Assembly (NCBI RefSeq): GCF_033971905.1
Contig: NZ_JALBUT010000004.1
Coordinates: 136,942 to 200,941 of the forward strand
DNA from: Intestinicryptomonas porci
Lineage (GTDB): Bacteria; Verrucomicrobiota; Verrucomicrobiia; Opitutales; Intestinicryptomonadaceae
Direction of reading: 5' to 3'
Length of the DNA stretch: 64,000 nucleotides
The stretch's first letter is position 1, and each line of letters begins with the position of its first letter. Below the pieces are notes generated by a model. The model saw only the letters and a program-made list of their open reading frames with translations. It searched no databases and was not told the origin of the DNA. Shown here piece after piece: positions 6,349-20,400 of the stretch. The translations under genes were made by a program, and so were the position numbers.

Positions 6349-6399
6349 GTCTTTGTAAATTCTTATAAAGCTTGACGATTGGGGGATATAAATCCATTT

Positions 6400-7584
6400 T
6401 ATATGCCCATTGTTATTATGAATTTCGGGCTGTCAGATTTGGGCATTGTTTGCGCGTTGGGATGCGGAAAAGAGGAGGTTTTAAAAAACGCCGCATCGTC
6501 TTCCACGGCGGGAATGTCAAAGTCTGAAACCATCATAAAAGGCGGGCAAACTTTTTTGGGAGAGGCGAACTTTCCCCTGCCCGAAATTGAAAATCCGCGA
6601 TGGAACACGAGGTGCAACCGCCTTGCGCTTTCTGCTGTTTTGCAGATTGAACATAGCGTGAGATGCGCGGTCGAAAAATACGGAGCCGGCAGGGTCGGAG
6701 TGGTTGTCGGGTCGAGCAACACCGGAATGCGCGAGTTCGAGGAGGAGTATTTTTATTTTTCACAAAAAAATTCTCCTAAAAAACCATTTGCCTGTCACGG
6801 AGAGCTTGGGAATGTCGCGGAATTTATAAGCGGATATTTTAATCTTTCAGCCCCAAGCTATACCGTTTCAACGGCTTGCTCGTCGTCTGCAAAGGCGTTT
6901 GCTTCCGCGGAAAGAATGATAAAAAACAATGTGTGCGACGCGGTTATCGTCGGGGGCGCGGACAGCATTTGCAAATTTGTTGTTAACGGATTTTCGGCGC
7001 TGGGCGCAACAAGTTCCGAGTTGGCAAATCCAATGAGCGCAAACCGCTCGGGCATAAATATCGGCGAGGGCGCGGCGATGTTCCTGCTTTCAAGGGAAAA
7101 TTCGCAAATCTTTTTGGCAGGAGTTGGCGAAAGCTCCGACGCCTATCATGCGACAAGCCCCGACCCGACAGGCGAGGGCGTGGCTCTTTCAATGAGAAAC
7201 GCCCTTCAAAACGCGGGGCTTACTCCGCAAGAAATTGATTATGTGAACTTGCACGGAACTGGCACGGTTTTTAACGATTCTATGGAAGCCAAAGCAGTGT
7301 ACGGCGTATTCAAAGACGAAGTTTTATGCTCCTCCACAAAGGCTTTGACGGGGCATTCGCTTGGGGCGGCGGGTGCGGTCGAAGCCGGATTATGCTGGCT
7401 TATGATGTCGGATTTAAACAAGGAAAACGCGCTTATCGAGCATGTTTATGACGGCGAGTTTGACAAAAAAATTGCGCCGATTTCCCTTGTAGGTAAAAAC
7501 ATGTTTAAAAAGGTAAAATATGCGCTCAGCAACTCTTTCGCCTTTGGCGGAAGCAATGCGTCCGTAATTTTGGGAAGGATTTAA
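6400..7584 (+). CDS. beta-ketoacyl-ACP synthase I/II family, APE-type cluster KAS
   Basis: Active-site Cys sits in STACSSS; the His motifs are in LHGTGT and GHSLGAAG; the C-terminus reads FAFGGSNASVILGRI. The ORF track starts at 6379, but the first ATG with a plausible N-terminus is 6400 (MPIVIMNFG). Confidence 0.8.
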   Translation, partial: YMPIVIMNFGLSDLGIVCALGCGKEEVLKNAASSSTAGMSKSETIIKGGQTFLGEANFPLPEIENPRWNTRCNRLALSAVLQIEHSVRCAVEKYGAGRVGVVVGSSNTGMREFEEEYFYFSQKNSPKKPFACHGELGNVAEFISGYFNLSAPSYTVSTACSSSAKAFASAERMIKNNVCDAVIVGGADSICKFVVNGFSALGATSSELANPMSANRSGINIGEGAAMFLLSRENSQIFLAGVGESSDAYHATSPDPTGEGVALSMRNALQNAGLTPQEIDYVNLHGTGTVFNDSMEAKAVYGVFKDEVLCSSTKALTGHSLGAAGAVEAGLCWLMMSDLNKENALIEHVYDGEFDKKIAPISLVGKNMFKKVKYALSNSFAFGGSNASVILGRI

Positions 7585-7585
7585 A

Positions 7586-8050
7586 ATGTATGAGCTTGAA
7601 GAGTTGTTGCCGCACGGCGCGCCGATGATAGTTTTAAGCGGTGTAAGAAGTTGCGATATCGAAAATTCAAAAGTCGAAACATTCTTCACTGTTTCTTCTT
7701 CCGACGTTTTTTTTGATGAAAATTCGGGCGGAGTGCCGTCTTGCTTTGCTCTCGAATACATGGCGCAGTCGATAGCCTGTTTCGTTGGAATTTTGGGGAA
7801 AAGCAAAGATGCGTCGTTTAAGCAGGAAATCGGCTTTGTCTTGGGAACTCGCAAAATGGATTTGAATATTCCTGTGTTTGAAAATTCAAAGACTTACAGC
7901 GTCAGAGCCGAAAAGGTGTTTTTCGACGAAGAGATGGCTTCGTTTGAATGCGCCATTTTCGACGAAAACAATTTTGAATGCGCCTTGGCAACGGTTAATG
8001 CATTCAAGCCCAAAAACCCGTTAAAATTCTTAAATCAAAACAATGAATAA
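7586..8050 (+). CDS. hotdog-fold (3R)-hydroxyacyl-ACP dehydratase-like protein
   Basis: The 154-aa ORF starts 2 nt after the KAS stop. Its size and position are typical of FabA/FabZ-like dehydratases in APE clusters. Confidence 0.55.
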   Translation: MYELEELLPHGAPMIVLSGVRSCDIENSKVETFFTVSSSDVFFDENSGGVPSCFALEYMAQSIACFVGILGKSKDASFKQEIGFVLGTRKMDLNIPVFENSKTYSVRAEKVFFDEEMASFECAIFDENNFECALATVNAFKPKNPLKFLNQNNE

Positions 8051-8771
8051 GCGCGTACTTATAACCGGCGCAAGCAGGGGCATAGGAAGGGCAATCGCCT
8101 TGCGTTTGGCTTCCGACGGCGGCTTCGACTTGGCCTTGCATTGCAATTCAAACATTTTAGCTGCAAATTCCGTTTTGGAAGAGGCAAAAAAACTCGGAGC
8201 GAACGCCCATATCCTTCAATTCGACATATCCGACCGCGAAAGCGTGAAAAAATCCCTCGAAGCCGACATGGAAAAAAACGGCGCGTTCTGGGGAGTTGTT
8301 TTGAATGCGGGAGTGAATGCCGACGCGCCTTTCCCCATGCTTGATTCAAATATGTGGGACAGGGTTTTGCGCACGAATTTGGACGGATTTTACAATGTTC
8401 TTTCACCGATTGTGATGCCGATGGTAAGCGAAAGAAAAGGCGGCAGGATTGTCGCTCTCACTTCGGTTTCGGGCATTGCGGGCAACAGGGGGCAGGTTAA
8501 TTACAGCGCGTCAAAGGCGGGAATAATCGGTGCTGCGAAGTCGCTTGCATTGGAGCTTGCAAAGCGTTCAATTACGGTAAACTGCGTGGCTCCGGGCGTC
8601 ATAGAAACCGACATGACAAAAGATTTGCCCTTTGAAGAGGTTAAAAAGCTGATTCCCCTCAGGCGTTTCGGCAAGCCCGAAGAGGTTGCAGGGGCAGTAT
8701 CGTTTTTGATGGGCGAAGACGCCGCGTACATTACGCGCCAAGTAATTTCAGTAAACGGAGGTTTGATATGA
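8043..8771 (+). CDS. 3-oxoacyl-ACP reductase (SDR family, FabG-like)
   Basis: The N-terminus reads MNKRVLITGASRGIGRAIA (a TGxxxGIG Rossmann motif), and a YSASKAG catalytic Tyr/Lys motif is present. The gene overlaps both neighbours by 8 bp and 4 bp (ATGA). Confidence 0.85.
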   Translation: MNKRVLITGASRGIGRAIALRLASDGGFDLALHCNSNILAANSVLEEAKKLGANAHILQFDISDRESVKKSLEADMEKNGAFWGVVLNAGVNADAPFPMLDSNMWDRVLRTNLDGFYNVLSPIVMPMVSERKGGRIVALTSVSGIAGNRGQVNYSASKAGIIGAAKSLALELAKRSITVNCVAPGVIETDMTKDLPFEEVKKLIPLRRFGKPEEVAGAVSFLMGEDAAYITRQVISVNGGLI

Positions 8772-9997
8772 ATAGAAGAGTTGTCGTGACGGGAATGGGC
8801 GCGATAAGCCCTCTCGGAAATTCGGTCAAGGAAAATTTCGACAGACTGCATGTCTATGAAAACAAAATCGAAGTTTTGGAAAGCCTCAAAGAATACAGCG
8901 GGCTGAATTCCAACCTCGCAAGCGTCATAAAGGATTTTAAAATACCCGAACGCTATTCGCGCAAAACTCTACGCACAATGGGCCCCGTGTCGGTAATGTC
9001 GCTTTTTGTGACAGAGCAGGCTCTCGAACAGGCGGGGATTGAGCAGGGCGGGGAGCTTATCCGCGGCGGAAGGCTCGGCGTTGCGTACGGTTCGTCGTCG
9101 GGTTCCGTTGAGCCTCTTTTGGATTTTTATTCGATGATAAATACGAAAGTCGTGCGCAACATCACATCTTCAACCTATATGAAGATGATGCCGCAGACTA
9201 CCGCCGTTAATATCTCGCTTTACCTGAAAACAACGGGCAGAATAATCCCGTCGGGAACCGCCTGCACTTCGGGCAGCCTTTCTATCGGATACGCCTACGA
9301 AGCCATAAAATACGGTCTTCAAGACGTGATGATTGCAGGGGGGGCGGAAGAATTCAGCCCGACGCAGGTTGCCATATTCGACACTTTGTACGCCACAAGC
9401 TCAAAGAACGAAACGCCCAAAAAAACGCCCTCTCCCTACGATGCCGAAAGGGACGGACTTGTTATAGGCGAGGGCGCGGCTACTCTCGTCTTGGAAGAGT
9501 ACGAACACGCGAAGGCAAGAGGCGCGAAGATAATTGCCGAAGTCGCGGGGTTTGCCTCAAACACCGACGGAACGCATATGACACAGCCAAACGCGCACAC
9601 AATCCAAGCCGCAATCGAAAAGTCGATGGAATGCGCGGGGGTGGATTCTTCCGAAATATGCTATGTAAACGGGCATGGAACAGCGACAACACAGGGGGAC
9701 ATTGCCGAAACAACCGCAACCGCCGCCGCTTTCAAACGCCCCATGCCAATTTCTTCGATGAAAAGCTACATAGGGCATTCTCTCGGCGCATGCGGCGCAA
9801 TCGAAGCGGCAATGACAATCGAAATGCTTAATTCCGACTGGTATATGCCCACTCTCAATTTGAAAAATGTCGATTCCGCATGTGGTGAGCTTGACTACAT
9901 AATAAACGAGGGCAGGGTTATTCGCGGAGAATATGCCATGAGCAACAATTTCGCCTTTGGCGGAGTCAACACTTCTCTTATATTCAAGCGGCTTTAA
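8768..9997 (+). CDS. beta-ketoacyl-ACP synthase II-like (FabF/FabB family)
   Basis: The N-terminus MNRRVVVTGMGAISPLGNS is classical for this family. The catalytic residues lie in GTACTSGS (Cys), VNGHGTAT (His) and GHSLGACG (His). Confidence 0.85.
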   Translation: MNRRVVVTGMGAISPLGNSVKENFDRLHVYENKIEVLESLKEYSGLNSNLASVIKDFKIPERYSRKTLRTMGPVSVMSLFVTEQALEQAGIEQGGELIRGGRLGVAYGSSSGSVEPLLDFYSMINTKVVRNITSSTYMKMMPQTTAVNISLYLKTTGRIIPSGTACTSGSLSIGYAYEAIKYGLQDVMIAGGAEEFSPTQVAIFDTLYATSSKNETPKKTPSPYDAERDGLVIGEGAATLVLEEYEHAKARGAKIIAEVAGFASNTDGTHMTQPNAHTIQAAIEKSMECAGVDSSEICYVNGHGTATTQGDIAETTATAAAFKRPMPISSMKSYIGHSLGACGAIEAAMTIEMLNSDWYMPTLNLKNVDSACGELDYIINEGRVIRGEYAMSNNFAFGGVNTSLIFKRL

Positions 9998-10911
9998 GAT
10001 TTAAAGAAGTCGAAAAAATTAAACCACTGCAAGGGGGTATCGAGAGCGGATTTTTCCAAAAACGCGGCGTATTCCCTTGCGAGGTTTTCTCCGCGCCTTT
10101 TTGACTTTGCAAACTCTGCCATTTTGATTGTCGCAAAATATTTTCCATTTTTTTCCGCGCAGTTTGCGAAAAACACGGGGCGTTTTAGCATTTCGGCAAG
10201 CTGGAAAACTCCGCTTGGCAGATTGCATTTTTTGCCCAAAACAATTTCTTCGAAAAACTTTTCGGGGGCGCGTTTTGAAAGCCTGTCGCCCGCTGCGATA
10301 ATCAAATTTCCCCGTTCAAGCTCGGCGTCAAGATGTCCGAAAGTCGCGATGTTTATGTTTGAGACGTCCAAGAAATGGAAAGAATTTTCTTTTGATTTTG
10401 AAAGAAATTCCGTTCTGAAAATAGATTCCGACCAATTTTCGACAAGGGCGAAGATTTCGGGTTTTCGCGTTCCGAAAGCCGCCGCTCCGTTTGTGCCGAG
10501 AACTTCAAAATTGCCAATGTGCGAAAAAATCAAAAATGCGCCTTTCCCCGAATTTACAAGCGTTTTAAATTCTTCCGCGTCGTGGGAATTTTCAAAAAAA
10601 ACGCAATTTTTCGGAATGCGCCCCGACAGCGAAAGCATTTTATCGAGCATCGAAAGCGCGTAGTTATAGATAAGCCTGAAAACTCTCGGCTTGGTCGGAC
10701 TTATTTCTCTTCTTTTTTCAAATTCGTTCAAAACGCCGAAAAATTTTTTTGCGGAAGTTCTCGCTTCCGCCAAAAACGGGTATGCGCAAACGACAATGAA
10801 AAATATCAGAAACCGCGCGGCTCTGCGCCCAAAAACAATGCAAAACCACCAGACGATTTTTATCCTTAAAACGCCCGCGCATTTCTCTTTCTGGTTGAAC
10901 CATTCGCTCAT
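9994..10911 (-). CDS. LpxL/HtrB-family (lipid-A-type lauroyl/myristoyl) acyltransferase, ApeD-like
   Basis: SHIGNFEV matches the HxGNxE/HX4D-type motif of the LpxL family, and the N-terminus is a membrane anchor. Its stop codon overlaps the convergent KAS stop. Confidence 0.65.
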   Translation of the reverse strand: MSEWFNQKEKCAGVLRIKIVWWFCIVFGRRAARFLIFFIVVCAYPFLAEARTSAKKFFGVLNEFEKRREISPTKPRVFRLIYNYALSMLDKMLSLSGRIPKNCVFFENSHDAEEFKTLVNSGKGAFLIFSHIGNFEVLGTNGAAAFGTRKPEIFALVENWSESIFRTEFLSKSKENSFHFLDVSNINIATFGHLDAELERGNLIIAAGDRLSKRAPEKFFEEIVLGKKCNLPSGVFQLAEMLKRPVFFANCAEKNGKYFATIKMAEFAKSKRRGENLAREYAAFLEKSALDTPLQWFNFFDFFKS

Positions 10912-13013
10912 TTTTCCTCCGCAAGAAAAAGCGATATGAAATATGCAAATCCAAGCCCGAGGGCGAGCATCTCTCCGATGGAGCTTATCGCCTTAAACGA
11001 CGTGAATGCAAGCGCGCCAAAGCCGATTATGCTTGTCGCAAAAGAAATAAACACGGCGTTTTTTGTAAGCGTGGAATTATTTGAATAATGGAAAATAGAA
11101 TAGTCTATGCCAAGCCCCATTAAAATAAATAGAGCCAAGATATGGAATAAATTTACGTTTGCGCCTAAAATCCAAAATATGAAAATCGGAAGCCCTGCCG
11201 ACAAGACCACGGGCAAAATCAGTTTGAAAAAACTCCTTCTGAAAACGAGCGCAAACATTGCGGCAAGCGCAAGAAAACTTGCCGCAATTAAAGCCGCCGA
11301 AGATTTCATGTATGAGTCAAAAATGCCGTTTAGAAATTCAGGGGGCGAAAACGTTTCAAGAGCGCAGTTTTCGTCTTTGCCCACGGGAATGATTGCAGTC
11401 CAACTGCCGTTTTCTCCGTGAAGCATGCTTGAAACGGCATCTTCAAAAAGCGTGCCTTTAAGATCTTCGATTTTAAGCGGCTTTTGCCCTTTGGGCATTT
11501 CAAATTTTTTGTTTGCGCCTATTGATTTTTGGAGCTTTTCGGCGTATTTTTCGTAAAGGTTTTCAATAAGCCTTTTGTTTTTTTCCTGGCGATTTAAAGA
11601 CGGGATAAATCTTGAAATTCCGCTTGCGCCGGCGTTTTCTTCGCATGTCAAAATACTGTCTATCGAAGAGCCTTTTATTATCGCAAGCTTCTTTTCTGTG
11701 TCCTTGAATATTTCAGAAAGCGACTTCTCCTGTAGGAGCAAGTCTTTATCCGGAACGTAAAGATCCGTTGCCTGAGTTTTGAATTTTGCAAAAATCAGCC
11801 CCGAAAGCGACGCCGACACAAGCGCAATTACGGCAATGTTTTTCAGCCTGCCCAGTTTCGGGATGGGAATTTTCAATACCGACTGATTGAAATCGGGCTT
11901 CAATTTTCTTACAATCAAAGGATAGAAAAACCTCACAAATAAATACGATGAAATCAACCCCGCAATGGAAAATACCGAGATTTCTTTAAGCAAGTCGAGG
12001 CTTGAAAAATACAAGACCGCAAAGCAGACAAGCGTTGTCGCGAGCGTTTTGTTCAAGGGCTTTTCGATGCTTTTAAAGGCGTCTTCGGGGGAGAATTTTT
12101 TGCATGCGGAAAAATAATGGTATGAATAGTCAACAGAAAGCCCAATCAAACTTGTCGCAAAAATCAGGACGCATACATGGGGTTTATCAAAGAAAAATAC
12201 GAGGGTAGCAAGCGCGAATACAAAGGAGGAACATAGAGATATTGCCATCGGCAAAAATATTTTGGCTGTTCCAAACGCCCAATAACCCAGCGCAAAAACC
12301 AAGGTCAAAGAAACTGCCGAAAGAAAATTTATTTCGCTTTTTGATTTTTTCGACACTTTTAAGCTGTGTATGCGTGCACCGCTTTTATAGACTTCCAAAT
12401 CTTTGTTTTTTAGATTTTCAAGATTTTCAATTTTGCTTTCGAGTTCGGCGTCGGTTAAATTCAGCGTATTTAAAATCGCCGCCGCGTAGAATTTTCCGCC
12501 TTCTTCCTTCTCCAAAAAACCGTCCGACATTTTCCAACCGCCGCCGTATTCGAGGAGGCTTTTAACGTATTCTTCCAATAGAAAGAAAGGGTCTTTTGAA
12601 ACCTTGAAAATCGAGGCGCGGTAGGGGGATAGAATTTTTCTTTTTGCTTCGCTTAAAATTTTTTCTCCTCCGCCGCTTTCGATTATTGCCGCGCTCTCGG
12701 GGGAAAGAATATAGCTTGAATGCTCTAAAAGAAGCGTTTTTGCCGCGTTTAATTTTTCAGAATTGTCCCTTTCAACCCCAAGGATTTTCGCGGCTTTTTC
12801 TTTTGCGGCTTCCAGCGTTTCGCGGTTTTCTGACGCAAGGACAATTCTTATTTTCGAGGAATTGTTTTTTATGAAATCAAGCTCCGCGCTCTTGTTTTTG
12901 CCGCTTGCAAGCTCAAAAATTCCATACTCGAAATCAATAGGCACGCATAGCAGAAAAAGCGCGGAAAGCGCAAAAACCGCGGCGTATATAAATCTGAAAA
13001 TGGTGTCTTTCAA
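10908..13013 (-). CDS. MMPL/RND-superfamily exporter
   Basis: The 701-aa product has two blocks of multiple TM helices separated by a large soluble domain. This is the usual position of an MMPL exporter in APE-type clusters. Confidence 0.6.
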   Translation of the reverse strand: MKDTIFRFIYAAVFALSALFLLCVPIDFEYGIFELASGKNKSAELDFIKNNSSKIRIVLASENRETLEAAKEKAAKILGVERDNSEKLNAAKTLLLEHSSYILSPESAAIIESGGGEKILSEAKRKILSPYRASIFKVSKDPFFLLEEYVKSLLEYGGGWKMSDGFLEKEEGGKFYAAAILNTLNLTDAELESKIENLENLKNKDLEVYKSGARIHSLKVSKKSKSEINFLSAVSLTLVFALGYWAFGTAKIFLPMAISLCSSFVFALATLVFFFDKPHVCVLIFATSLIGLSVDYSYHYFSACKKFSPEDAFKSIEKPLNKTLATTLVCFAVLYFSSLDLLKEISVFSIAGLISSYLFVRFFYPLIVRKLKPDFNQSVLKIPIPKLGRLKNIAVIALVSASLSGLIFAKFKTQATDLYVPDKDLLLQEKSLSEIFKDTEKKLAIIKGSSIDSILTCEENAGASGISRFIPSLNRQEKNKRLIENLYEKYAEKLQKSIGANKKFEMPKGQKPLKIEDLKGTLFEDAVSSMLHGENGSWTAIIPVGKDENCALETFSPPEFLNGIFDSYMKSSAALIAASFLALAAMFALVFRRSFFKLILPVVLSAGLPIFIFWILGANVNLFHILALFILMGLGIDYSIFHYSNNSTLTKNAVFISFATSIIGFGALAFTSFKAISSIGEMLALGLGFAYFISLFLAEEK

Positions 13014-13552: not shown

Positions 13553-13947
13553 TGTAAAATCCGTTCTTTTATTTTTGCGGGCAGTTCAAAGCATGATGTC
13601 TTTGATTTAATGTTTACGCACATCTGTTTTGTTTCTGCCGAGCATATTTTTTCGCCGCTTTTGAAATCTTTTGCGATGTATTTTATGTGCAGGAAATTTT
13701 CGCTCGGAACAATCTTTGCAGATACTGAAAGCTCCTGTCCGAACTCAGAAGGGCTTATGTATTTTACGCTCATCTTGACCACAGGGAAAGCGTATCCGAG
13801 CCTTTCCATTTCGCGGTAGTCAAGCCCGATTTTTTCGAGCAGGGCGCATCTTGCCTTTTCAAAATATTTTATATAGTTTCCGTGCCAAACCACCTGCATT
13901 GGGTCGAGATCGTAAAACGGAACTTTTATTTTTACCGACGCTTCCAT
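13549..13947 (-). CDS. 4HBT/YbgC-like acyl-CoA/ACP thioesterase
   Basis: The 132-aa hotdog protein begins ...YDLDPMQVVWHGNYIKYFEKAR, which matches the thioesterase family. Confidence 0.7.
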   Translation of the reverse strand: MEASVKIKVPFYDLDPMQVVWHGNYIKYFEKARCALLEKIGLDYREMERLGYAFPVVKMSVKYISPSEFGQELSVSAKIVPSENFLHIKYIAKDFKSGEKICSAETKQMCVNIKSKTSCFELPAKIKERILQ

Positions 13948-14657
13948 ATAAAAATTTTCTCTTTTAAAAATTTAAAAATCCCTTCGGCGCAGAGCAGGGC
14001 ATGCAGTGCGGAAATCGACGCGTTGTCTTTTATCATTCTGAAATTCGACGCTCCGTTTTCGGGATACTTTACAGCTACATCCATGTTTATTATTTGGCAT
14101 CCCGCCCGCGCAAGGCGGACGATGATTTCGATATCAAAGCCCATCCGCGCAAATTTAAGGCTATGCATAACCTCTGAAACTTTCTTCAGTGGATAAATCC
14201 TAAATCCGCACATGGCGTCGCGTATTTTTACCCCCGGAACTTCAAGGGCAACCCAGAAATTCGTAATTTTCCTTCCGTAAAACCTCGAAGCGGGAGCATT
14301 TTCGTAAACAGGGCATCCGTTTATAACGGCATCTGGATTTTCCACCGACGCCTTTTTGAAGTCTTCAAATGAGCCAATGCCGTGCTGTCCGTCCGCATCT
14401 ATTTGGAATACATGCGTAAAACCAAGCTCGCGCGCTTTTTCTGCGCCGCGGCAAAAAGCGGCTCCCTTTCCGAGATTTTTTTCATTTTTTGCAAAAATAA
14501 GCCCGTTTTCTTTTGCGAGGCTTTCAATCTCATTGGCTTCGCGGCTTCCGTCATCGACGAGTATCACGGGTGCGCCGAGCGACAGCAGTTTAGGCAAAAA
14601 CTCCTTAAACTGTTCTGCATGGTTGAAAATGGGAACTACTATTGCAAGATTATGCAT
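13932..14657 (-). CDS. family-2 glycosyltransferase
   Basis: The N-terminal motif APVILVDDGSRE and a DxD motif (QIDADGQH) are present. Confidence 0.75.
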   Translation of the reverse strand: MHNLAIVVPIFNHAEQFKEFLPKLLSLGAPVILVDDGSREANEIESLAKENGLIFAKNEKNLGKGAAFCRGAEKARELGFTHVFQIDADGQHGIGSFEDFKKASVENPDAVINGCPVYENAPASRFYGRKITNFWVALEVPGVKIRDAMCGFRIYPLKKVSEVMHSLKFARMGFDIEIIVRLARAGCQIINMDVAVKYPENGASNFRMIKDNASISALHALLCAEGIFKFLKEKIFIWKRR

Positions 14658-14660
14658 TTT

Positions 14661-16325
14661 TCAAAATTCCAAAACTCCCGAAGAACAGGGAAGCCCTTGT
14701 TTTGAATAGGAAAACGTGCAGGAATTTTCCCCGTTTTTTATTGAAAGCAAGACAATTTCGCGCGGTCTTATTATGTTTGAAAATTTCAGCCTTTTTACAC
14801 GCTTGGGATAATCGGTTTTGTCAAAAAGCTTTTTTGCAAAGTTAATGGCAAAGTGGAGCTGGATAGCCCCCGGCAAAATTTTTGCCATCGAGAAATGTCC
14901 GTTAAAATACGCGCTCTCGGCGGCAAAAAATATTTCCATATCCGCGCCAAAGTCGTGTTTTTTTATGTCGCAAATTATTGGCTCTTCCGTCTTCAAATTA
15001 AAATTTTTTTTAATTTCGCCCTTTAAAATTTTGCCCTGAGCGTTCGTCGGAATTGAATTTACAACCTTTATTTTTCGGAGAGAAAATTTGGAGTAGAAAC
15101 TTTCTTTTACGCGCCTGTTTATTTCGCTTAGAAGTTTCAGGCGACCGTTTTCCATAAAAAACCGCCTGCCTTCGGAATTTAAAACAATAAGCGCCCTAAG
15201 CGCATTGCCATCAAAATCCACATGGCAGTTTTCGACAAATTCGTGCGCCAAAACCGCATTTTCCATATCGGGAATATTAAGCTGTGTTTCGCCGATTTTA
15301 ACGAGCCTGTCTATGCGCCCGAAAAAATTAAATTTTCTTCCGCCGCAAAAAATTTCCACGATGTCGTTCGTCTGAAATTCTCCGCCGAGCGCGTAGGGGG
15401 ATTTGGCGAGCAGGCATCCCCGAGCGTCAATGCCGATTTCAACTTCCCCAAAAACGCTCCAAGAATCGGAAACGCCTCTGTTTCTGCTTGCAATGCCGCC
15501 GCTTTCGGTGCTTCCGAAAATCTCCGTGGGAATTGCGCCCCAAATTTCCTTTGCATCGGCGCATGCCTTTTCTTTCAAAAGCCCGCCGCTTGTCGTGATT
15601 GCAGCCACATTTTGCGGGAAATCGTAAAGCTCGCGGTGCCTTGCGACAGCTTCGATGAAAGACGGCGTTGTTATAAACAAGACTTTCTGATTTTGCTTTT
15701 GAATTGCAATAAGTGTTTCAGGATCTCTTATCGTTATTGAATGCGCGGGCATTTTTAGCGACATCGGATAAAGAAGCCTCCAAAGCATTCCATACAAATG
15801 GAAAGGCTCGCAAGTCGAAACCACCGCGCAGTCTTCAAAACGCCCCATGATACTTGCGCTGTTTTTAGTTTCATCGCTTAGAGTTGCGAAGGTTTTTTCA
15901 ATCATCTTGGGCGCGGATGTGGAGCCCGACGTAAAAAAGCACACCCTGCTTTCGCGCATATTTATAAAATCGAATTCGCATTCGGGAAGGTCTTTGGGAA
16001 TGTCGAATAAATTTGCAGAAAGCGTTTTCTTGTTGGTTATTACGGGCAGATTTTCGCTTTTTGAAAAATCTTCCGCCATCTTTTCGGAAGATGGAAGCAT
16101 GACACGCTTTTTTGCCTGCAAGAGCGCAAAGAAAAGCGTTGCAAACAAAACGGCGTCGCCTTCGACGTACAATACAAAATCTTCATGTTTGCTCCCTGCG
16201 AAATGCGAAGCGTATCTTGCAACGTCTTTTTTCATTTGCCCAAACGAAACCGAACCTTTTTCAAGCTTGAAAGCGGCAAAGTCTGAAACATTTTCCGTAA
16301 AGAAATTTTCGGGGCTAACAAACAT
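14661..16325 (-). CDS. AMP-dependent ligase (adenylation enzyme) fused to a C-terminal FabZ-like hotdog dehydratase
   Basis: The N-terminal part has adenylation motifs (FFTSGSTSAPK, FGSTESGG). The C-terminal ~130 aa carry YFNGHFSMAKILPGAIQL, resembling the FabZ motif FxGHFPxxPxMPGVL. Confidence 0.7.
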   Translation of the reverse strand: MFVSPENFFTENVSDFAAFKLEKGSVSFGQMKKDVARYASHFAGSKHEDFVLYVEGDAVLFATLFFALLQAKKRVMLPSSEKMAEDFSKSENLPVITNKKTLSANLFDIPKDLPECEFDFINMRESRVCFFTSGSTSAPKMIEKTFATLSDETKNSASIMGRFEDCAVVSTCEPFHLYGMLWRLLYPMSLKMPAHSITIRDPETLIAIQKQNQKVLFITTPSFIEAVARHRELYDFPQNVAAITTSGGLLKEKACADAKEIWGAIPTEIFGSTESGGIASRNRGVSDSWSVFGEVEIGIDARGCLLAKSPYALGGEFQTNDIVEIFCGGRKFNFFGRIDRLVKIGETQLNIPDMENAVLAHEFVENCHVDFDGNALRALIVLNSEGRRFFMENGRLKLLSEINRRVKESFYSKFSLRKIKVVNSIPTNAQGKILKGEIKKNFNLKTEEPIICDIKKHDFGADMEIFFAAESAYFNGHFSMAKILPGAIQLHFAINFAKKLFDKTDYPKRVKRLKFSNIIRPREIVLLSIKNGENSCTFSYSKQGLPCSSGVLEF

Positions 16326-16851
16326 CTTTTAAAGCCTTTCTACGCGCCAGGTATTCGAAAAAAAACATGAGCACAATTAAAATGTAAGACAAAAATCCGT
16401 TGAATGCCGCCCAAACTTCATTCGACATAAAAACGGTCGCAAGAGAACACATGGCGAGGAAAAACATAAACACCGCCCAGGCGAAAGTCGCCTTGCGCGC
16501 GTATTCTACCCCCTTTTGGGGGAGTGCTCCGCGCATTTTTTCGCCGATAATCTGAACGAGAGGCTTTTTTTTAAGCGAAAGCGCAAATACTGCCATTACG
16601 GTGAAATTCATCACAACGGGATAGAACTTGACCAACTCCGCCCTGCCAAGAACCGCCGAAAGCGCGATGACCGAAATCCCGCCAACAAGCAGGATTTTTT
16701 GGCGGTTTATGAAAAAGCCAAGCAACACCGCGATAGTCAAAACGGCAACCGCCGCTTCGCCGCATCCGCTTTTTATCGCGAAGAAAACCGCAAACGGATA
16801 GCATGCAACGACGGCGGCCGCAATGGCTTTTACTGGCGCGCTACTTTTCAT
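16315..16851 (-). CDS. integral membrane protein of unknown function (cluster-associated)
   Basis: The 178-aa product has 4-5 predicted TM helices. It overlaps both neighbours by 11 bp. Confidence 0.45.
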   Translation of the reverse strand: MKSSAPVKAIAAAVVACYPFAVFFAIKSGCGEAAVAVLTIAVLLGFFINRQKILLVGGISVIALSAVLGRAELVKFYPVVMNFTVMAVFALSLKKKPLVQIIGEKMRGALPQKGVEYARKATFAWAVFMFFLAMCSLATVFMSNEVWAAFNGFLSYILIVLMFFFEYLARRKALKDVC

Positions 16852-17092
16852 TCACAAGCTTTTCGACAATATCGACCACTTCGCCAAACGTTCTGATTTT
16901 CTTGAAATCTTCCGGATTTACGCGCTTTTTTGTCTTTTGCTGCAAGCGCACCACCAAATCGACCGCGTCTATCGAATCCAAATCAAGTTCCGTAAACAGG
17001 TTCGTGGAGTCGCTTATAGAGCTTTTTTCGCATTCAAACTCTTCGGAAAGAATGTCTTTTATAGAATTTGCAATTTCTTCTCTTGTTGCCAT
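16841..17092 (-). CDS. acyl carrier protein
   Basis: The 83-aa product has the phosphopantetheine attachment motif LDLDSIDAVDLV. Confidence 0.85.
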   Translation of the reverse strand: MATREEIANSIKDILSEEFECEKSSISDSTNLFTELDLDSIDAVDLVVRLQQKTKKRVNPEDFKKIRTFGEVVDIVEKLVNEK

Positions 17093-17096
17093 GTTT

Positions 17097-17369
17097 TTAT
17101 TTTGTTTGGGTTGATAAATTTTTTATGATGTAGTCGGCTATCGTATCCACCGAAAAGAATATTTCGCTGTTGTCTTCAAATTCAGAAAACGTAACGCCGA
17201 ACTTTTTTTTGATTTCCATTCCCAACTCCAAGGCGTCTATAGAGTCCAAGCCCAGTCCGTCCTTGAAAAGCGGGGCTGTCTGCTCTATGTCGTCGGGCGA
17301 CATGTCTTCCAAATTTAGAGCGGTTATGATTAGCTCTTTTACTTGTTCAGATATTTCTTTTTTATCCAT
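17097..17369 (-). CDS. acyl carrier protein (second, tandem copy)
   Basis: The 90-aa product has the motif LGLDSIDALELG. Confidence 0.85.
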   Translation of the reverse strand: MDKKEISEQVKELIITALNLEDMSPDDIEQTAPLFKDGLGLDSIDALELGMEIKKKFGVTFSEFEDNSEIFFSVDTIADYIIKNLSTQTK

Positions 17370-17375
17370 AAGTTG

Positions 17376-18119
17376 TTATATTTTTAAAATTTCCGATATT
17401 TTTGAAGTCAAAATCCTCGACTTTTTCGCGTTGCTTAAATCGGGGTTTGCTTCCGGAAAGATTGGGGCAAATTCTTGAAGCGCAAACTTCACTGTGCGGT
17501 TTGAAACGCTCAGCGGATTGGAGGTCTTCCCCAAAATCAAAGGGTCGCAAGTTATGCGCACGGGAATGACGTGGCAGGCTGTTTTTATCGCAATCCGCGC
17601 GGCTCCCGAATGCACTTTTTTGCGGGGATTGTCGCTGCGCGTGCCTTCTGGGAAAATTATGACATTTATTCCGCTTCTTATCGCGTCCGCCGCCTTGTCG
17701 ATTGATGAAATATCGAACTCCTTTGTGGGAATAAATATGCTCCTTACAATAGGCCTAAGCAAAATATTGCGAAGAAGAGACTCTTTTACGATGCAAACCG
17801 AGTTTTCATAGGAGCTCATCAAAAACACGATGTCAAGCAGAGTGGGGTGGTTTGCGGCAATTACAACTCCCCTGTGCGAAGAGTTCAAATTTTTCTTTTC
17901 AAGCTTTATCAAACGGAAAAACTCCAATCCGCCGACAAAAAATTTCCACGACAACCTTAACGCAGATATTGCATGTTCCTTTGAAAACAGCATGGCAACG
18001 GGAACAACCACTATCCCCATCAAAAAGCCGCCGACTCCGAACAATGCAAAGAATATTGCGGTTAAAACTGAACGCAAGAACGTCATACTGCCGATTTTAA
18101 TTTCAAAAATTTGCCGCAA
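17376..18119 (-). CDS. PlsC-family 1-acylglycerol-3-phosphate acyltransferase-like protein
   Basis: Both family motifs are present (AANHPTLLD for NHxxxxD, and FPEGTRS), after an N-terminal TM anchor. Confidence 0.7.
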   Translation of the reverse strand: MRQIFEIKIGSMTFLRSVLTAIFFALFGVGGFLMGIVVVPVAMLFSKEHAISALRLSWKFFVGGLEFFRLIKLEKKNLNSSHRGVVIAANHPTLLDIVFLMSSYENSVCIVKESLLRNILLRPIVRSIFIPTKEFDISSIDKAADAIRSGINVIIFPEGTRSDNPRKKVHSGAARIAIKTACHVIPVRITCDPLILGKTSNPLSVSNRTVKFALQEFAPIFPEANPDLSNAKKSRILTSKISEILKI

Positions 18120-18742
18120 ATTTCTCCGCCGTTTTCAAAAAAGCATTTTAATTTTTCAAAACTCATCGGCTCTACCGAAAAATTGCCGAATTCGACGCAA
18201 ATTTCGCCGCTTTCGCAATTTTCACAATAAAACGCCAGCCCGCAAGGCGGCGCACTTTCGCCGTCAATCATATCAAGCAGCGGCTCCTGTGCATATACAA
18301 ACAAAACTTTGCCCGTTTCCAAAAAGGCTTCAACCAATCCCGCTTCGAGAGAATTTTCGCCCGCGGCAATGGCAGTGTAGGGAGACTTGTTCTTTTCAAC
18401 AATCGAAAACATACCCATCGGGAAATTGTGCACCGAAGAAGAAAAACCGTTCGGAGAAACGCCCATACCCGAGTTTAAGGAGTCGAAAAGCTTAATGCAG
18501 TCGTTCAAACAGCCGTATCTCGATGCAAAAACAGACTTGTAGCCGCTTTTGCCGCCCGCAAGGGCATTCGCCAATTGAAAAACGATTTTGCCCGTTAGGT
18601 CAAGCTTGCGCCTTGCAAGCATCGGCAAAAACGAAACATCCGGCGACGCTCCTTCAAAAATTTTAAATCCTTTAATTTTAATGGGCATAAAAAATCTTTT
18701 TAAATAACACCCATTAACAATGCAATAATAAAATTCCGCCAT
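18083..18742 (-). CDS. short beta-ketoacyl synthase-like protein (chain-length-factor-like, ApeO-like)
   Basis: The 219-aa protein has a thiolase-fold-like sequence but no catalytic KAS triad. It overlaps the downstream acyltransferase gene by 37 bp. Confidence 0.45.
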   Translation of the reverse strand: MAEFYYCIVNGCYLKRFFMPIKIKGFKIFEGASPDVSFLPMLARRKLDLTGKIVFQLANALAGGKSGYKSVFASRYGCLNDCIKLFDSLNSGMGVSPNGFSSSVHNFPMGMFSIVEKNKSPYTAIAAGENSLEAGLVEAFLETGKVLFVYAQEPLLDMIDGESAPPCGLAFYCENCESGEICVEFGNFSVEPMSFEKLKCFFENGGEICGKFLKLKSAV

Positions 18743-18805
18743 ATAAAGCGCATAAAAATCCCTTATGGAAAATTTTATGCTTTGGGGAACGCAAAAACTA
18801 TTCTG

Positions 18806-19330
18806 CTAATGGCGCATTGCCAAATTTTTTAAATCGGAATAAAATTTAGCATACTCTTTAGAAGTTATCTGCCGCTGAGTGCTTAAAATGAGCATGGGGC
18901 ATTCTCCAAGCCCATACCCATATCCCGGGTGTGAATGTTTATGGGGATTTTCAAAGAAACCGCATTTTTTATAAAAACGCAATCTTGCGGCCGATTGCGC
19001 ATCCGTAATTTTATCTATTTCAAGAACGAGTATTTTATCGGTTGCAGACTTGAATTCTTCCATAATCTTAAAACCATATCCGCGTCCGCGCAAATCTTTA
19101 TTTACGGCAAAATGTTCTATGTATATAAAATTGTCGAAATCCCAATACGAAATAAAGCCTGCAAGCACATTGTTTTCTTCATGGCAAATCAAGTGGTACC
19201 TTTCGCTTTCAAATGCCATTTTTTGCTGAAATTCAGTCCGCTGTTCGGCAAGGGGAAAACTTTCTTCATACAACCTTTTAAATTGCGGATAAATTTTGTC
19301 CGAATTGCTTTTTACCTCAATTTTATTCAT
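18806..19330 (-). CDS. GNAT-family N-acetyltransferase
   Basis: The acetyl-CoA-binding motif LRGRGYGFKIM is present. It is the first gene of the minus-strand cluster operon, with an AT-rich promoter region upstream (19331-19638). Confidence 0.7.
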   Translation of the reverse strand: MNKIEVKSNSDKIYPQFKRLYEESFPLAEQRTEFQQKMAFESERYHLICHEENNVLAGFISYWDFDNFIYIEHFAVNKDLRGRGYGFKIMEEFKSATDKILVLEIDKITDAQSAARLRFYKKCGFFENPHKHSHPGYGYGLGECPMLILSTQRQITSKEYAKFYSDLKNLAMRH

Positions 19331-20390: not shown

Positions 20391-20400
20391 TAGCGAACCC

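What the first reader, a model, noticed from the sequence alone, without database searches (positions are those of the whole stretch)
6379..19330. Complete aryl-polyene/flexirubin-like type-II FAS lipid gene cluster (~12.9 kb, 16 genes)
The cluster comprises 2 KAS, a hotdog dehydratase, a FabG-like KR, a short KS/CLF-like protein, tandem ACPs, an adenylating ligase, a thioesterase, a GT2, LpxL-like and PlsC-like acyltransferases, a LolA-like protein, an MMPL exporter and a GNAT. It is packed with 4-37-bp overlaps. This component set is the hallmark of APE-family biosynthetic clusters, whose products are cell-envelope-anchored polyene lipids. No ammonia-lyase, methyltransferase or DarAB-type genes are present, so the starter unit and final head group are not predictable, and the product could be a new variant in this lineage.
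Basis: partly seen in the sequence, partly recalled or inferred. Interest (0 to 1): 0.7.

Follow-up and report, generated by a model that had tools for sequence, protein, structure and literature searches.

The report
Aryl-polyene lipid gene cluster, gut Opitutales
This is a complete, intact copy of the very common bacterial gene cluster for membrane-anchored aryl-polyene pigment lipids, carried by an uncultured gut or rumen Verrucomicrobium. It is real and correctly recognised, but ordinary apart from a rearranged gene layout.

Summary
Window 6379-19330 carries 16 tightly packed ORFs with the stated domain content, between a class II ribonucleotide reductase and a DoxX gene.

Fifteen of the ORFs match the characterised E. 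coli CFT073 ape cluster one-to-one: ApeC, D, E, F, G, H+I (fused), J (split into a GT2 and a separate LpxM-like acyltransferase), K, L, M, O, P, Q and R. The best solved-structure matches are the aryl-polyene enzymes themselves (ApeO:ApeC, ApeR, ApeP), well ahead of FabF. Catalytic residues are intact, and no enoyl reductase is present.

Absent from the whole window are ApeA, ApeB (methyltransferase) and ApeN (DUF3261, LolB-like). The GNAT is not conserved with the cluster.

The host is an uncultured Opitutales (Verrucomicrobiota), not Bacteroidetes, and the flexirubin-specific tests fail. The layout (split ApeJ, inverted apeOPQR, no B or N) recurs in rumen and gut Opitutales, Alphaproteobacteria, Sphaerochaetaceae and other MAGs. 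antiSMASH surveys have already called "arylpolyene" clusters in gut Opitutales.

Verdict: a new member of a known kind. The aryl starter, probably 4-hydroxybenzoate, and the final lipid are inferred, not shown. Interest is low to moderate.

The parts
6379..7584 (+). ApeO-like ketosynthase, the catalytic partner of the KS:CLF heterodimer. The likely true start is near 6418, giving 388 aa as in relatives.
   Evidence: 39% identity, E 6e-93 to E. coli ApeO. Best PDB matches are 6qsp_A (XdApeO, 279 bits) and 7f28_B (AbApeO), against about 160 bits for FabF. PRK09185 scores 445, above its cut-off of 407. Cys-His-His is present.
7586..8050 (+). ApeP-like 3-hydroxyacyl-ACP dehydratase
   Evidence: Pfam ApeP-like scores 43.8 bits, above the cut-off of 27. 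The best PDB match is 6qsr_B. It is 31% identical, E 1e-18, to E. coli ApeP, and the LPH catalytic His is conserved.
8043..8771 (+). ApeQ-like 3-ketoacyl-ACP reductase (FabG2 type)
   Evidence: 53% identity, E 4e-97 to E. coli ApeQ. TIGR01831 scores 361, above 338.85. The flexirubin FlxB model scores 277, below 340. The YxxxK and TGxxxGIG motifs are present.
8768..9997 (+). ApeR-like homodimeric ketosynthase
   Evidence: 52% identity, E 3e-165 to E. coli ApeR. PDB matches are 4ewg (PpApeR, 475 bits) and 7f27 (AbApeR, 450 bits), against 265 bits for FabF. PRK09116 scores 610, above 470. Cys-His-His is present.
9994..10911 (-). Stand-alone LpxL/LpxM-type acyltransferase, equivalent to the C-terminal half of ApeJ. 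Its 3' end overlaps the apeR-like gene by 4 bp in convergent orientation.
   Evidence: 25% identity, E 5e-21 to E. coli ApeJ residues 248-550. A family profile hits LpxM 5kn7 at E 6e-10 and PatA at 6e-4, with the HX4E motif aligned. It has one N-terminal TM segment.
10908..13013 (-). ApeM-like RND/MMPL-type exporter
   Evidence: 24% identity over 668 columns, E 3e-32 to E. coli ApeM. About 12 TM segments fall in two blocks, as in ApeM. There are weak HAE3/HpnN NCBIfam hits, and the L002 orthologue has a weak MMPL hit.
13010..13552 (-). ApeL-like periplasmic LolA-type carrier
   Evidence: It has a signal peptide like that of ApeL. LolA and LolA2_flexi models match over the full length at E about 5e-5, below cut-off. 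A profile built from gut-clade homologues hits E. coli ApeL at 80 bits, E 2e-25. It sits in the same position, between apeK and apeM.
13549..13947 (-). ApeK-like hot-dog thioesterase
   Evidence: 41% identity, E 3e-33 to E. coli ApeK. Pfam 4HBT_2 scores 57.5 bits.
13932..14657 (-). GT2 glycosyltransferase, equivalent to the N-terminal half of ApeJ
   Evidence: 37% identity, E 2e-50 to E. coli ApeJ residues 9-230. Pfam Glycos_transf_2 hit.
14661..16325 (-). Fusion of an ApeH-like adenylating acyl/aryl-ACP ligase (about residues 1-445) with an ApeI-like dehydratase (about residues 446-554)
   Evidence: E 9e-33 to E. coli ApeH and 1e-7 to ApeI. The C-terminal-domain profile scores ApeI at 56 bits against 28.5 for the window's own FabZ. 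ANL core motifs, including the catalytic Lys432, are invariant. The AF2 model has pLDDT 90, and its nearest folds are aryl-acid ligases: AuaEII, benzoate-CoA ligase, PchD and MenE. The best NCBIfam hit is the PYP-type 4-coumarate-CoA ligase at 84 bits, below cut-off.
16315..16851 (-). ApeG-like integral membrane protein (COG4648-type in the literature)
   Evidence: 37% identity, E 3e-21 to E. coli ApeG. It has 5 predicted TM segments. It has no Pfam hit, and neither does E. coli ApeG.
16841..17092 (-). ApeF-like acyl carrier protein
   Evidence: 41% identity, E 1e-21 to ApeF. PRK05350 scores 101.8, above 65. The DSL serine is present.
17097..17369 (-). ApeE-like acyl carrier protein, the carrier of the aryl starter in X. 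doucetiae
   Evidence: 57% identity, E 1e-27 to ApeE. PRK09184 scores 83, above 70. The DSL serine is present.
17376..18119 (-). ApeD-like PlsC/lysophospholipid acyltransferase. The likely start is at 18086, giving 236 aa.
   Evidence: 33% identity, E 9e-18 to ApeD. Pfam Acyltransferase scores 63 bits. It has two N-terminal TM segments, as ApeD does.
18083..18742 (-). ApeC-like chain-length factor, a truncated KS-like protein without the catalytic Cys
   Evidence: Pfam Ketoacyl-synt_2 scores 113.8 bits. The only PDB hits are 7f28_A (AbApeC) and 6qsp_B (XdApeC). It is 29% identical, E 2e-12, to E. coli ApeC.
18806..19330 (-). Adjacent GNAT N-acetyltransferase whose membership of the cluster is doubtful
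   Evidence: Pfam Acetyltransf_1 hit. It matches no E. coli Ape protein. It is present next to the cluster only in the 96% relative L001, and is absent upstream of apeC in L002, L007 and L008.

Best explanation
Window 6379-18742 is a functional aryl-polyene lipid (APE/APEL) biosynthesis and export cluster. It is of the E. coli/Xenorhabdus ape type and sits in the chromosome of an uncultured gut or rumen Opitutales bacterium.

Inferred mechanism, by orthology to the characterised systems:
1. The N-terminal ApeH-like domain of the 554-aa protein adenylates an aromatic carboxylic acid, most likely 4-hydroxybenzoate. It loads the acid directly onto the ApeE-like ACP.
2. The ApeR-like KS and the ApeO:ApeC-like KS:CLF pair extend the chain with malonyl units.
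3. After each round the ApeQ-like KR reduces the chain. A dehydratase pair then dehydrates it. That pair is the ApeP-like protein plus the ApeI-like C-terminal domain of the ligase.
4. No enoyl reductase acts, so a conjugated polyene results. With no ApeB methyltransferase, the ring should stay unmethylated.
5. The second ACP (ApeF-like) probably carries a second conjugated acyl chain.
6. The ApeD-like PlsC acyltransferase, the GT2 and the separate LpxM-like acyltransferase (together equivalent to ApeJ) assemble a glyco-phospholipid carrying the polyene. The ApeK-like thioesterase assists.
7. The RND-type ApeM-like pump, the ApeG-like membrane protein and the secreted LolA-like ApeL move the lipid to the outer membrane.

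What is shown here: gene content, orthology, intact active sites, absence of an ER, MT or ApeN, and conservation of the layout in relatives. What is inferred: the starter identity, the chain length, the lipid anchor and the localisation.
For: One-to-one BLASTP correspondence of 15 ORFs to 16 of the 18 E. coli CFT073 Ape proteins, in the same order C-D-E-F-G-H-I-J-K-L-M. The reciprocal tblastn of the E. coli Ape set against the whole window lands on the same genes for every one of these proteins except ApeL and ApeM, which gave no row.

The best solved-structure matches are ApeO:ApeC (6qsp, 7f28), ApeR (4ewg, 7f27) and ApeP (6qsr), far ahead of the FabF and FabZ matches. The identities of these entries are confirmed in PMC8358021.

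Curated model cut-offs are passed for PRK09185, PRK09116, TIGR01831, PRK05350, PRK09184 and Pfam ApeP-like.

Catalytic Cys-His-His, the ACP Ser, the DH His, the KR YxxxK, the ligase core motifs and the acyltransferase HX4E are all present.

Profile searches link the weakly matching proteins to ApeL at 80 bits and ApeI at 56 bits.

The 15-gene unit is conserved at 52-90% identity per protein in another Verrucomicrobial MAG with different flanks (L002). It is conserved at 40-83% in a human-gut Opitutales MAG (L008).

The ligase model resembles aryl-acid ligases most closely.

The roles of the Ape proteins are taken from PMC8253772, bioRxiv 10.1101/2020.12.19.423268 and PMC8358021.
Against: The ligase is only 24% identical to E. 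coli ApeH, and no specificity code exists, so the aryl starter is not demonstrated.

There is no 4-hydroxybenzoate-forming enzyme, no methyltransferase and no ammonia-lyase in the ORFs that were profiled, although four ORFs at 60.5-64 kb were not scanned. Chorismate lyase was looked for only through Pfam hits on those ORFs.

The LolB-like ApeN and the lipoprotein ApeA are absent, so export may differ.

The ApeI-like domain is just below Pfam's gathering score in a single-sequence scan (25.7 against 28.5).

No product, pigment or expression data exist. Promoter and terminator scans are no better than shuffles.
Confidence: 0.85

Rival explanations
1. It is an APE-type machine, but the product is not an aryl polyene. 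On this view the divergent ligase primes with a non-aromatic acid or an unusual acid scavenged from the gut. Alternatively, the cluster makes only a conjugated polyene fatty-acyl glycolipid. The product class in this gut-anaerobe clade would then differ from E. coli or Xenorhabdus APELs.
For: The ligase is only 24% identical to ApeH and is below every curated NCBIfam cut-off. No methyltransferase or starter-supply gene was found in the window ORFs that were profiled, and tblastn with E. coli ApeB found nothing in the window. The clade has its own architecture: split ApeJ, no ApeN, ApeA or ApeB. X. doucetiae ape enzymes are also proposed to make a non-aryl conjugated C26:5 acyl chain.
Against: The ligase is the positional and best-match counterpart of ApeH. 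The same H-I fusion occurs in Vibrio and Photobacterium-type clusters and is described for A. baumannii. The nearest folds, and the best though sub-threshold family hit, are aryl-acid ligases. E. coli-type clusters also lack a starter-supply gene and take 4-HBA from primary metabolism.
Confidence: 0.12
2. It is a flexirubin-type cluster, the Bacteroidetes sub-family of aryl polyenes in which the polyene is esterified to a dialkylresorcinol.
For: The KR gives a strong but sub-threshold hit to the flexirubin FlxB model, at 277 bits. The 180-aa protein gives a weak hit to LolA2_flexi.
Against: Both hits are below their curated cut-offs of 340 and 125. No DarA/DarB-type genes or ammonia-lyase appear among the cluster or window ORFs that were profiled. 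Every protein has a better counterpart in the E. coli ape cluster. The host is an Opitutales.
Confidence: 0.01
3. It consists of housekeeping or duplicated type II fatty-acid synthase genes (FabF/FabG/FabZ paralogues) next to unrelated envelope genes, with no dedicated product.
For: The KS, KR, DH and ACP components all belong to FAS II superfamilies. The KR also passes a generic FabG model, NF004200.
Against: Both KS are below the fabF equivalog cut-off and above the APE-type model cut-offs. The PDB ranking puts Ape enzymes 110-210 bits above the best FabF match. There is no FabI/K/V, FabD or FabH. The housekeeping FabZ sits elsewhere in the window as an LpxC-FabZ fusion. The 15-gene unit moves as a block between different genomic contexts.
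Confidence: 0.02

Closest known systems
E. coli CFT073 apeA-R cluster (c1204-c1186) and its X. doucetiae counterpart, whose products are aryl-polyene lipids (APELs)
   Same: It has the same 16 functions, C, D, E, F, G, H, I, J, K, L, M, O, P, Q and R, with C-to-M in the same order. The core is KS:CLF + KS + KR + two DH + tandem ACPs + an AasS-like ligase, with no enoyl reductase. It has the same anchoring enzymes (PlsC-type AT, GT2, LpxL/M-type AT, thioesterase) and export parts (RND pump, ApeG, LolA-like).
   Different: ApeH and ApeI are fused. ApeJ is split, and its acyltransferase half has moved to after apeM. The apeOPQR genes are inverted and convergent. ApeA, ApeB (ring methyltransferase) and ApeN (DUF3261, LolB-like) are absent. 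Identities are only 23-57%. The host is a Verrucomicrobium.
A. baumannii and Vibrio/Photobacterium-type APE clusters
   Same: They have the same ligase-dehydratase (H-I) fusion. The ApeO:ApeC and ApeR crystal structures (7F28, 7F27) are among the top matches.
   Different: Those clusters keep ApeJ's two halves adjacent and keep ApeN. The Vibrio and Photobacterium loci also keep ApeA and ApeB. All genes lie on one strand (loci L058, L066, L085, L086). Their ApeR is more distant, at 39-45% identity against 52% for E. coli.
Uncharacterised 'arylpolyene' BGCs called by antiSMASH in gut and rumen MAGs (Opitutales CAG-312/Merdousia, Kiritimatiellae RUG572, turtle-ant Opitutales)
   Same: They come from the same host order and habitat (PMC10904984; PMC8277422). 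Loci L002, L007 and L008 share the window's exact layout.
   Different: Those reports give only a BGC class label. No gene-by-gene assignment or product is available. The window's species has no closer relative than 61% (ligase) among GTDB species representatives.
Flexirubin clusters of Bacteroidetes
   Same: They share the general APE-type KS/KR/DH/ACP core and a LolA-like protein.
   Different: The window has no DarAB and no tyrosine ammonia-lyase. The Flx-specific NCBIfam models are below cut-off.

Membership tests
APE (aryl polyene) biosynthetic gene cluster family | KS:CLF heterodimer pair (ApeO + ApeC) | tested here: met
   KS1 is 39% identical to ApeO, with 6qsp_A and 7f28_B as top PDB hits. 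The 219-aa Ketoacyl-synt_2 protein hits only ApeC chains in the PDB and lacks the catalytic Cys.
APE (aryl polyene) biosynthetic gene cluster family | Second, homodimeric KS (ApeR) | tested here: met
   52% identity to E. coli ApeR. 4ewg and 7f27 score 450-475 bits against 265 for FabF. PRK09116 is above its cut-off.
APE (aryl polyene) biosynthetic gene cluster family | Two consecutive stand-alone ACPs (ApeE, ApeF) | tested here: met
   The 90-aa protein best matches ApeE (57%) and the 83-aa protein best matches ApeF (41%). PRK09184 and PRK05350 are above their cut-offs. Both phosphopantetheine-attachment (DSL) serines are present.
APE (aryl polyene) biosynthetic gene cluster family | Two hot-dog dehydratases (ApeI + ApeP) | tested here: met
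   ApeP-like Pfam scores 43.8, above 27. The ApeI-like domain is fused to the ligase. Its single-sequence Pfam score of 25.7 is just under the gathering score of 28.5. However, the family profile scores E. coli ApeI at 56 bits against 28.5 for the window's own FabZ.
APE (aryl polyene) biosynthetic gene cluster family | Dedicated FabG2-type ketoreductase (ApeQ) and no enoyl reductase | tested here: met
   TIGR01831 scores 361, above 338.85, with 53% identity to ApeQ. No ER-type domain occurs in any of the 16 ORFs.
APE (aryl polyene) biosynthetic gene cluster family | AasS-like adenylating enzyme that loads an aryl acid on the ACP (ApeH) | tested here: inconclusive
   Homology and position are met (E 9e-33 to ApeH), the ANL motifs are intact and the nearest folds are aryl-acid ligases. 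Substrate specificity cannot be read from the sequence.
APE (aryl polyene) biosynthetic gene cluster family | RND/MMPL-type transporter (ApeM) with ApeG and a LolA-like ApeL | tested here: met
   ApeM E 3e-32 with about 12 TM segments. ApeG E 3e-21 with 5 TM segments. ApeL has a signal peptide and a profile hit of 80 bits.
APE (aryl polyene) biosynthetic gene cluster family | Lipid-anchoring enzymes ApeD (PlsC-type) and ApeJ (GT2 + acyltransferase), plus thioesterase ApeK | tested here: met
   All are present. ApeJ is split into a 241-aa GT2 and a 305-aa LpxM-like acyltransferase.
APE (aryl polyene) biosynthetic gene cluster family | Accessory genes of the E. coli type: ApeN (DUF3261), ApeB methyltransferase, ApeA lipoprotein | tested here: not met
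   tblastn with the E. coli proteins finds nothing in the 64-kb window. They are also absent from the window's closest relatives, L001, L002, L007 and L008. These genes are not among the core genes used to define the family (Fig. 1 legend), so their absence does not exclude membership.
APE (aryl polyene) biosynthetic gene cluster family | [quoted passage not shown] | not testable with these tools
   This needs expression and extraction followed by UV/Vis, LC-MS and NMR.
Flexirubin cluster (Bacteroidetes) | Flx-specific enzymes (FlxB SDR, LolA2), DarA/DarB dialkylresorcinol genes, tyrosine ammonia-lyase | tested here: not met
   FlxB scores 277, below 340. LolA2_flexi scores 22.8, below 125. 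No DarAB-type or lyase-type domain occurs in the window ORFs that were profiled.
Housekeeping FAS II (FabF/FabG/FabZ/AcpP) | Proteins reach the equivalog cut-offs for fabF, fabG, fabZ and acpP | tested here: not met
   fabF TIGR03150 scores 222 and 351, below 493.75. TIGR01830 scores 248, below 297.75. FabZ NF000582 scores 16.9, below 113. TIGR00517 scores 36-38, below 70.45.

The most novel reading that the evidence does not exclude
The layout found here marks a distinct sub-family of APE clusters. Its features are a fused ApeH-I, a split ApeJ with the acyltransferase after apeM, inverted apeOPQR, and no ApeA, ApeB or ApeN.

This sub-family is confined to gut and rumen MAGs: Opitutales, rumen Alphaproteobacteria/'Enterousia', Sphaerochaetaceae and 'Spyradosoma', with a looser version in Kiritimatiellae and Lentisphaerae.

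Its product could be a structurally different polyene lipid. For example, it might have an unmethylated head group, or one primed from aromatic acids scavenged from plant or tyrosine fermentation. It might have a different sugar-lipid anchor, or an export route that works without a LolB-like protein. Its role in presumably oxygen-poor gut habitats would then not be the classical protection against reactive oxygen.
Probability: 0.2. Interest if true: 0.5.

Novelty: new member of a known kind. Interest (0 to 1): 0.25.

Why it matters
Aryl-polyene clusters are regarded as the most widespread bacterial biosynthetic gene-cluster family. Even so, the full lipid product is known from one organism only, and nothing is known for Verrucomicrobiota or for gut-resident, presumably anaerobic bacteria.

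This locus gives a clean, complete, gene-by-gene annotated example from an uncultured gut Opitutales. It also shows that a particular rearranged layout is shared by several gut and rumen lineages that are not closely related. That sharing hints at horizontal spread within the gut and offers a compact 12.4-kb unit for heterologous expression.

It does not change the understanding of the family. Its value is as a well-defined candidate for finding out what these lipids look like, and what they do, in gut bacteria.

Tried and rejected
- A genome-contig scan with the ligase protein alone found no relative. An exact-sequence look-up of the ligase found nothing. Only an alignment-based scan worked.
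- I first assumed a Bacteroidetes origin, from the GC content, the LpxC-FabZ fusion and the Bacteroides-type fumarate reductase. The ligase and ArgRS homologues point to Opitutales instead, so I dropped that assumption.
- Pfam at E up to 5 gave nothing for the 305-, 701-, 180- and 178-aa proteins. They were resolved by comparison with E. coli Ape proteins and by family profiles.
- The sigma-70 promoter and intrinsic terminator scan of 6000-20000 was no better than shuffles (24 against 19.1±4.3, and 25 against 25.7±5.5). It says nothing about operon structure.
- Rfam found no RNA family anywhere in the window.
- I considered the GNAT as a possible amino-sugar N-acetylase of the pathway. I rejected it as a conserved member, because it is missing next to the cluster in L002, L007 and L008.
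- tblastn of E. coli ApeM and ApeL against the window returned no row. This is probably masking of the TM segments for ApeM and weak identity for ApeL. BLASTP and the profile searches do connect them.
- The fold search with the ligase model gives only a generic ANL fold, with aryl-acid ligases on top at 14-18% identity. I treat that as a hint, not a substrate call.
- The GC profile shows the minus-strand operon at 0.39-0.45. That is inside the window's overall range of 0.36-0.52, so I make no claim of recent transfer from composition.

Full report
**1. What is there**

The ORF table shows 16 back-to-back ORFs filling 6379-19330. Four are on the plus strand (6379-9997) and twelve are on the minus strand (9994-19330).

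The flanks are ordinary chromosomal genes. Upstream lies a 1141-aa class II ribonucleotide reductase (2873-6298). Downstream lie DoxX (19639-20277), a GH20 hydrolase, DUF1015, CorA and fumarate reductase subunits. The stated boundaries are therefore correct.

Pfam and NCBIfam confirm two full-length ketosynthases, a hot-dog dehydratase that passes Pfam's ApeP-like model, and an SDR ketoreductase. They also confirm a Ketoacyl-synt_2 protein, two ACPs, an AMP-binding ligase, a 4HBT thioesterase, a GT2, a PlsC-type acyltransferase and a GNAT.

Four proteins (305, 701, 180 and 178 aa) have no Pfam hit even at E = 5.

**2. Test against a characterised reference**

I fetched the E. coli CFT073 ape cluster (NC_004431 1143000-1163000, locus L006). 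Its gene-to-function table is published (PMC8253772). I compared every window protein with every Ape protein by BLASTP. The result is a clean one-to-one map:

| Window protein | E. coli counterpart | Identity | E-value |
|---|---|---|---|
| KS1 | ApeO | 39% | 6e-93 |
| DH | ApeP | 31% | 1e-18 |
| KR | ApeQ | 53% | 4e-97 |
| KS2 | ApeR | 52% | 3e-165 |
| 219-aa protein | ApeC | 29% | 2e-12 |
| PlsC-type AT | ApeD | 33% | 9e-18 |
| 90-aa ACP | ApeE | 57% | 1e-27 |
| 83-aa ACP | ApeF | 41% | 1e-21 |
| 178-aa protein | ApeG | 37% | 3e-21 |
| 554-aa protein, residues 27-443 | ApeH | 24% | 9e-33 |
| 554-aa protein, residues 473-543 | ApeI | 30% | 1e-7 |
| GT2 | ApeJ residues 9-230 | 37% | 2e-50 |
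| 305-aa protein | ApeJ residues 248-550 | 25% | 5e-21 |
| Thioesterase | ApeK | 41% | 3e-33 |
| 180-aa protein | ApeL | 23% | 0.02 |
| 701-aa protein | ApeM | 24% | 3e-32 |

The GNAT matches nothing. The reverse search, E. coli Ape proteins against the whole window, lands on the same genes for all of these except ApeL and ApeM, which returned no row. It finds no counterpart of ApeA, ApeB or ApeN anywhere in the 64 kb.

The order C-D-E-F-G-H-I-J(N-terminal half)-K-L-M on the minus strand is the E. coli order. There are two differences. The acyltransferase half of ApeJ has moved to after apeM. The apeO-P-Q-R genes are inverted, so the two operons converge and their ends overlap by 4 bp at 9994-9997.

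**3. Independent support**

- **Solved structures.** In the Protein Data Bank, KS1's best matches are 6qsp_A and 7f28_B, at 279 and 252 bits, with the best FabF-type match at about 161 bits. The 219-aa protein matches only 7f28_A and 6qsp_B. KS2 matches 4ewg and 7f27 at 475 and 450 bits, against 265 for FabF. The DH matches 6qsr_B best.
- **Identity of those entries.** PMC8358021 confirms that 6QSP is X. doucetiae ApeO-ApeC, 7F28 is A. baumannii ApeO-ApeC, 7F27 is AbApeR and 4EWG is a Paraburkholderia ApeR. It also shows that the A. baumannii ApeH has an AasS-like N-terminal part and pairs with ApeP as the dehydratase. The H-I fusion is therefore already known.
- **Curated models.** Cut-offs are passed for PRK09185, PRK09116, TIGR01831 (FabG2), PRK05350 and PRK09184. 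The housekeeping models for fabF, fabG (TIGR01830), fabZ and acpP are all failed.
- **Weak links firmed up with profiles.** A profile of the 180-aa family from gut loci scores E. coli ApeL at 80 bits. The ligase's C-terminal-domain profile scores ApeI at 56 bits, against 28.5 for the window's own FabZ. The 305-aa family profile hits the lipid A acyltransferase LpxM (5kn7, E 6e-10) and PatA (E 6e-4), with the catalytic HX4E aligned.
- **Topology.** It agrees with the assignments. The ApeM-like protein has about 12 TM segments in two blocks. The ApeG-like protein has five. The ApeL-like protein has a cleavable-looking signal peptide nearly identical in form to ApeL's.

**4. Are the enzymes intact?**

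Alignments show the following:
- Cys-His-His in both KS, and its absence in the CLF.
- The phosphopantetheine-attachment serine (the Ser of the ACPs' conserved Asp-Ser-Leu motif) in both ACPs.
- The catalytic His in both dehydratase units.
- The YxxxK and glycine-rich motif in the KR.

Across 21 homologues, the ligase keeps the P-loop TSGSTxxPK, the YGxTE-type motif, the GRxDRxxK motif and the C-terminal catalytic lysine invariant.

None of the 16 ORFs has an enoyl-reductase domain. The chain should therefore stay unsaturated.

**5. Host and relatives**

The ligase's closest relatives are unnamed metagenomic proteins (96% in a Logan/ENA assembly). Next come 'Opitutales bacterium' MAGs at about 60% and a 'Verrucomicrobiaceae bacterium' MAG at 56%.

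The window's arginyl-tRNA synthetase is 96% identical to a partial protein from an Opitutales MAG. It is 72% identical to one from a Verrucomicrobiaceae MAG. The host is therefore an uncultured Opitutales, not a Bacteroidetes.

- **L001.** The 96% relative has the same cluster, the same flanks and the GNAT.
- **L002.** This rumen-type metagenome contig has the same 15 genes in the same layout, with different flanks and no GNAT.
- **Wider scan.** An alignment-based scan of GTDB species representatives, followed by tblastn with all window proteins, shows that the window's layout recurs. That layout is C D E F G HI Jn K L M Jc plus inverted O P Q R, with no B or N. It is found in sheep-rumen and human-gut Opitutales (L007, L008), many rumen and gut Alphaproteobacteria MAGs, a Sphaerochaetaceae MAG, a 'Spyradosoma' MAG and a Bdellovibrionota MAG.
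- **Classical type.** Vibrio, Photobacterium and Psychromonas loci show B (with A in the Vibrio and Photobacterium loci) followed by C D E F G HI Jn Jc K M N O P Q R on one strand.
- **Third arrangement.** Kiritimatiellae and Lentisphaerae MAGs carry a different layout.
- **The GNAT.** It is absent upstream of apeC in L002, L007 and L008, so I do not count it as part of the cluster.

**6. How it most likely works**

This is inferred by orthology to the systems reconstituted or dissected in X. doucetiae, E. coli and A. baumannii.

1. The ApeH-like domain adenylates an aromatic acid, which is 4-hydroxybenzoate in the studied systems. It loads the acid directly on the ApeE-like ACP.
2. ApeR and ApeO:ApeC extend the chain with malonyl units.
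3. ApeQ reduces each round's product, and the ApeI-domain/ApeP pair dehydrates it. This gives an all-trans polyene.
4. The ApeF-like ACP may carry a second conjugated acyl chain.
5. The ApeD-like acyltransferase, the GT2 and the LpxM-like acyltransferase build the glyco-phospholipid that carries the polyene. ApeK assists.
6. ApeM, ApeG and ApeL export the lipid to the outer membrane.

With no ApeB, the ring should be unmethylated.

The starter remains the weakest step. The ligase is only 24% identical to ApeH. Its best family hit, PYP-type 4-coumarate-CoA ligase at 84 bits, is far below that model's cut-off. A confident AlphaFold model (pLDDT 90) resembles anthranilate-, benzoate-, salicylate- and o-succinylbenzoate-activating enzymes most closely, but only at 14-18% identity.

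No starter-supply gene was found among the window ORFs that were profiled. That is also true of the E. coli cluster, which draws 4-HBA from UbiC.

**7. Comparison and novelty**

The locus meets every core feature used to define ape clusters: KS apeO/R, ACP apeE/F, CLF apeC, DH apeI/P, KR apeQ and transporter apeM (Fig. 1 legend).

It fails the flexirubin-specific tests. FlxB scores 277 against a cut-off of 340, and LolA2_flexi scores 22.8 against 125. There is no DarAB and no ammonia-lyase.

It also fails the housekeeping FAS II tests.

antiSMASH-based surveys have already labelled 'arylpolyene' clusters in gut Opitutales (family CAG-312, genus Merdousia) and in Kiritimatiellae from human gut MAGs (PMC10904984). 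The same label has been given in Opitutales bins from turtle-ant guts (PMC8277422) and in a marine Verrucomicrobium (PMC9865893).

This is therefore a new member of a known and very common kind. What is slightly unusual is the layout shared by gut and rumen lineages (split ApeJ, loss of ApeA, ApeB and ApeN). No product of any such cluster from Verrucomicrobiota or from a gut anaerobe has been characterised.

**8. Verdict**

- The cluster is not flexirubin-like.
- The host is Opitutales, not Bacteroidetes.
- The cluster has 15 genes plus an unrelated-looking GNAT.
- The ligase carries a second dehydratase domain.
- The GT2 and the LpxL-like protein are a split ApeJ.

Interest is 0.25. The most novel reading still open is that the gut-clade architecture makes a chemically distinct polyene lipid with a non-classical starter or role. 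I put that at about 0.2 probability.

Noticed in passing
window 9994-9997: The 3' ends of the convergent apeR-like gene (+) and the 305-aa acyltransferase gene (-) overlap by 4 bp. This leaves no room for terminators between the two operons. The same convergent junction is kept in L001, L002 (3-bp gap) and L008.
   Followed up: partly
window 28218-29384 (-): A bacterial serpin homologue (Pfam Serpin, 57 bits) sits in the lowest-GC stretch of the window (0.36). It lies next to an HtrA-like protease at 29444-30874.
   Followed up: no
window 36441-38563 (-): Housekeeping lipid A genes are present: LpxA and an LpxC-FabZ fusion protein. This is where the cell's ordinary FabZ sits, separate from the ape dehydratases.
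   Followed up: partly
window 2873-6298 (+): A 1141-aa class II (B12-dependent) ribonucleotide reductase with a TSCPD domain lies directly upstream of the cluster. Rfam finds no cobalamin riboswitch, or any other RNA family, in the whole window.
   Followed up: partly
L001 3346-6926 versus window 19330-20401: The 96%-identical relative carries extra genes between GH20 and the GNAT: HxlR, two Lumazine_bd_2 proteins and a 328-aa ORF without domains. The window lacks them, which indicates a strain-level indel next to the cluster.
   Followed up: no
loci L024-L061 (Kiritimatiellae/Lentisphaerae MAGs), e.g. L046, L050, L055, L057, L072, L076: A third cluster layout was seen: E F G, then a ligase-DH matching only residues about 120-554, then (L) M Jc, then O P Q R C D on the same strand. 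No GT2 or thioesterase hit was found in it.
   Followed up: no
window 24547-25389 (+) and 44465-46009 (+): Two sizeable ORFs (280 and 514 aa) have no Pfam hit. The first lies just upstream of the fumarate reductase flavoprotein gene and may be its membrane subunit.
   Followed up: no
window 42184-44436, 48119-51799, 57445-59622, 20401-22113: The window holds several glycoside hydrolases: two GH92, a 1226-aa GH2 and a GH20. This is consistent with a glycan-degrading gut Opitutales lifestyle.
   Followed up: no
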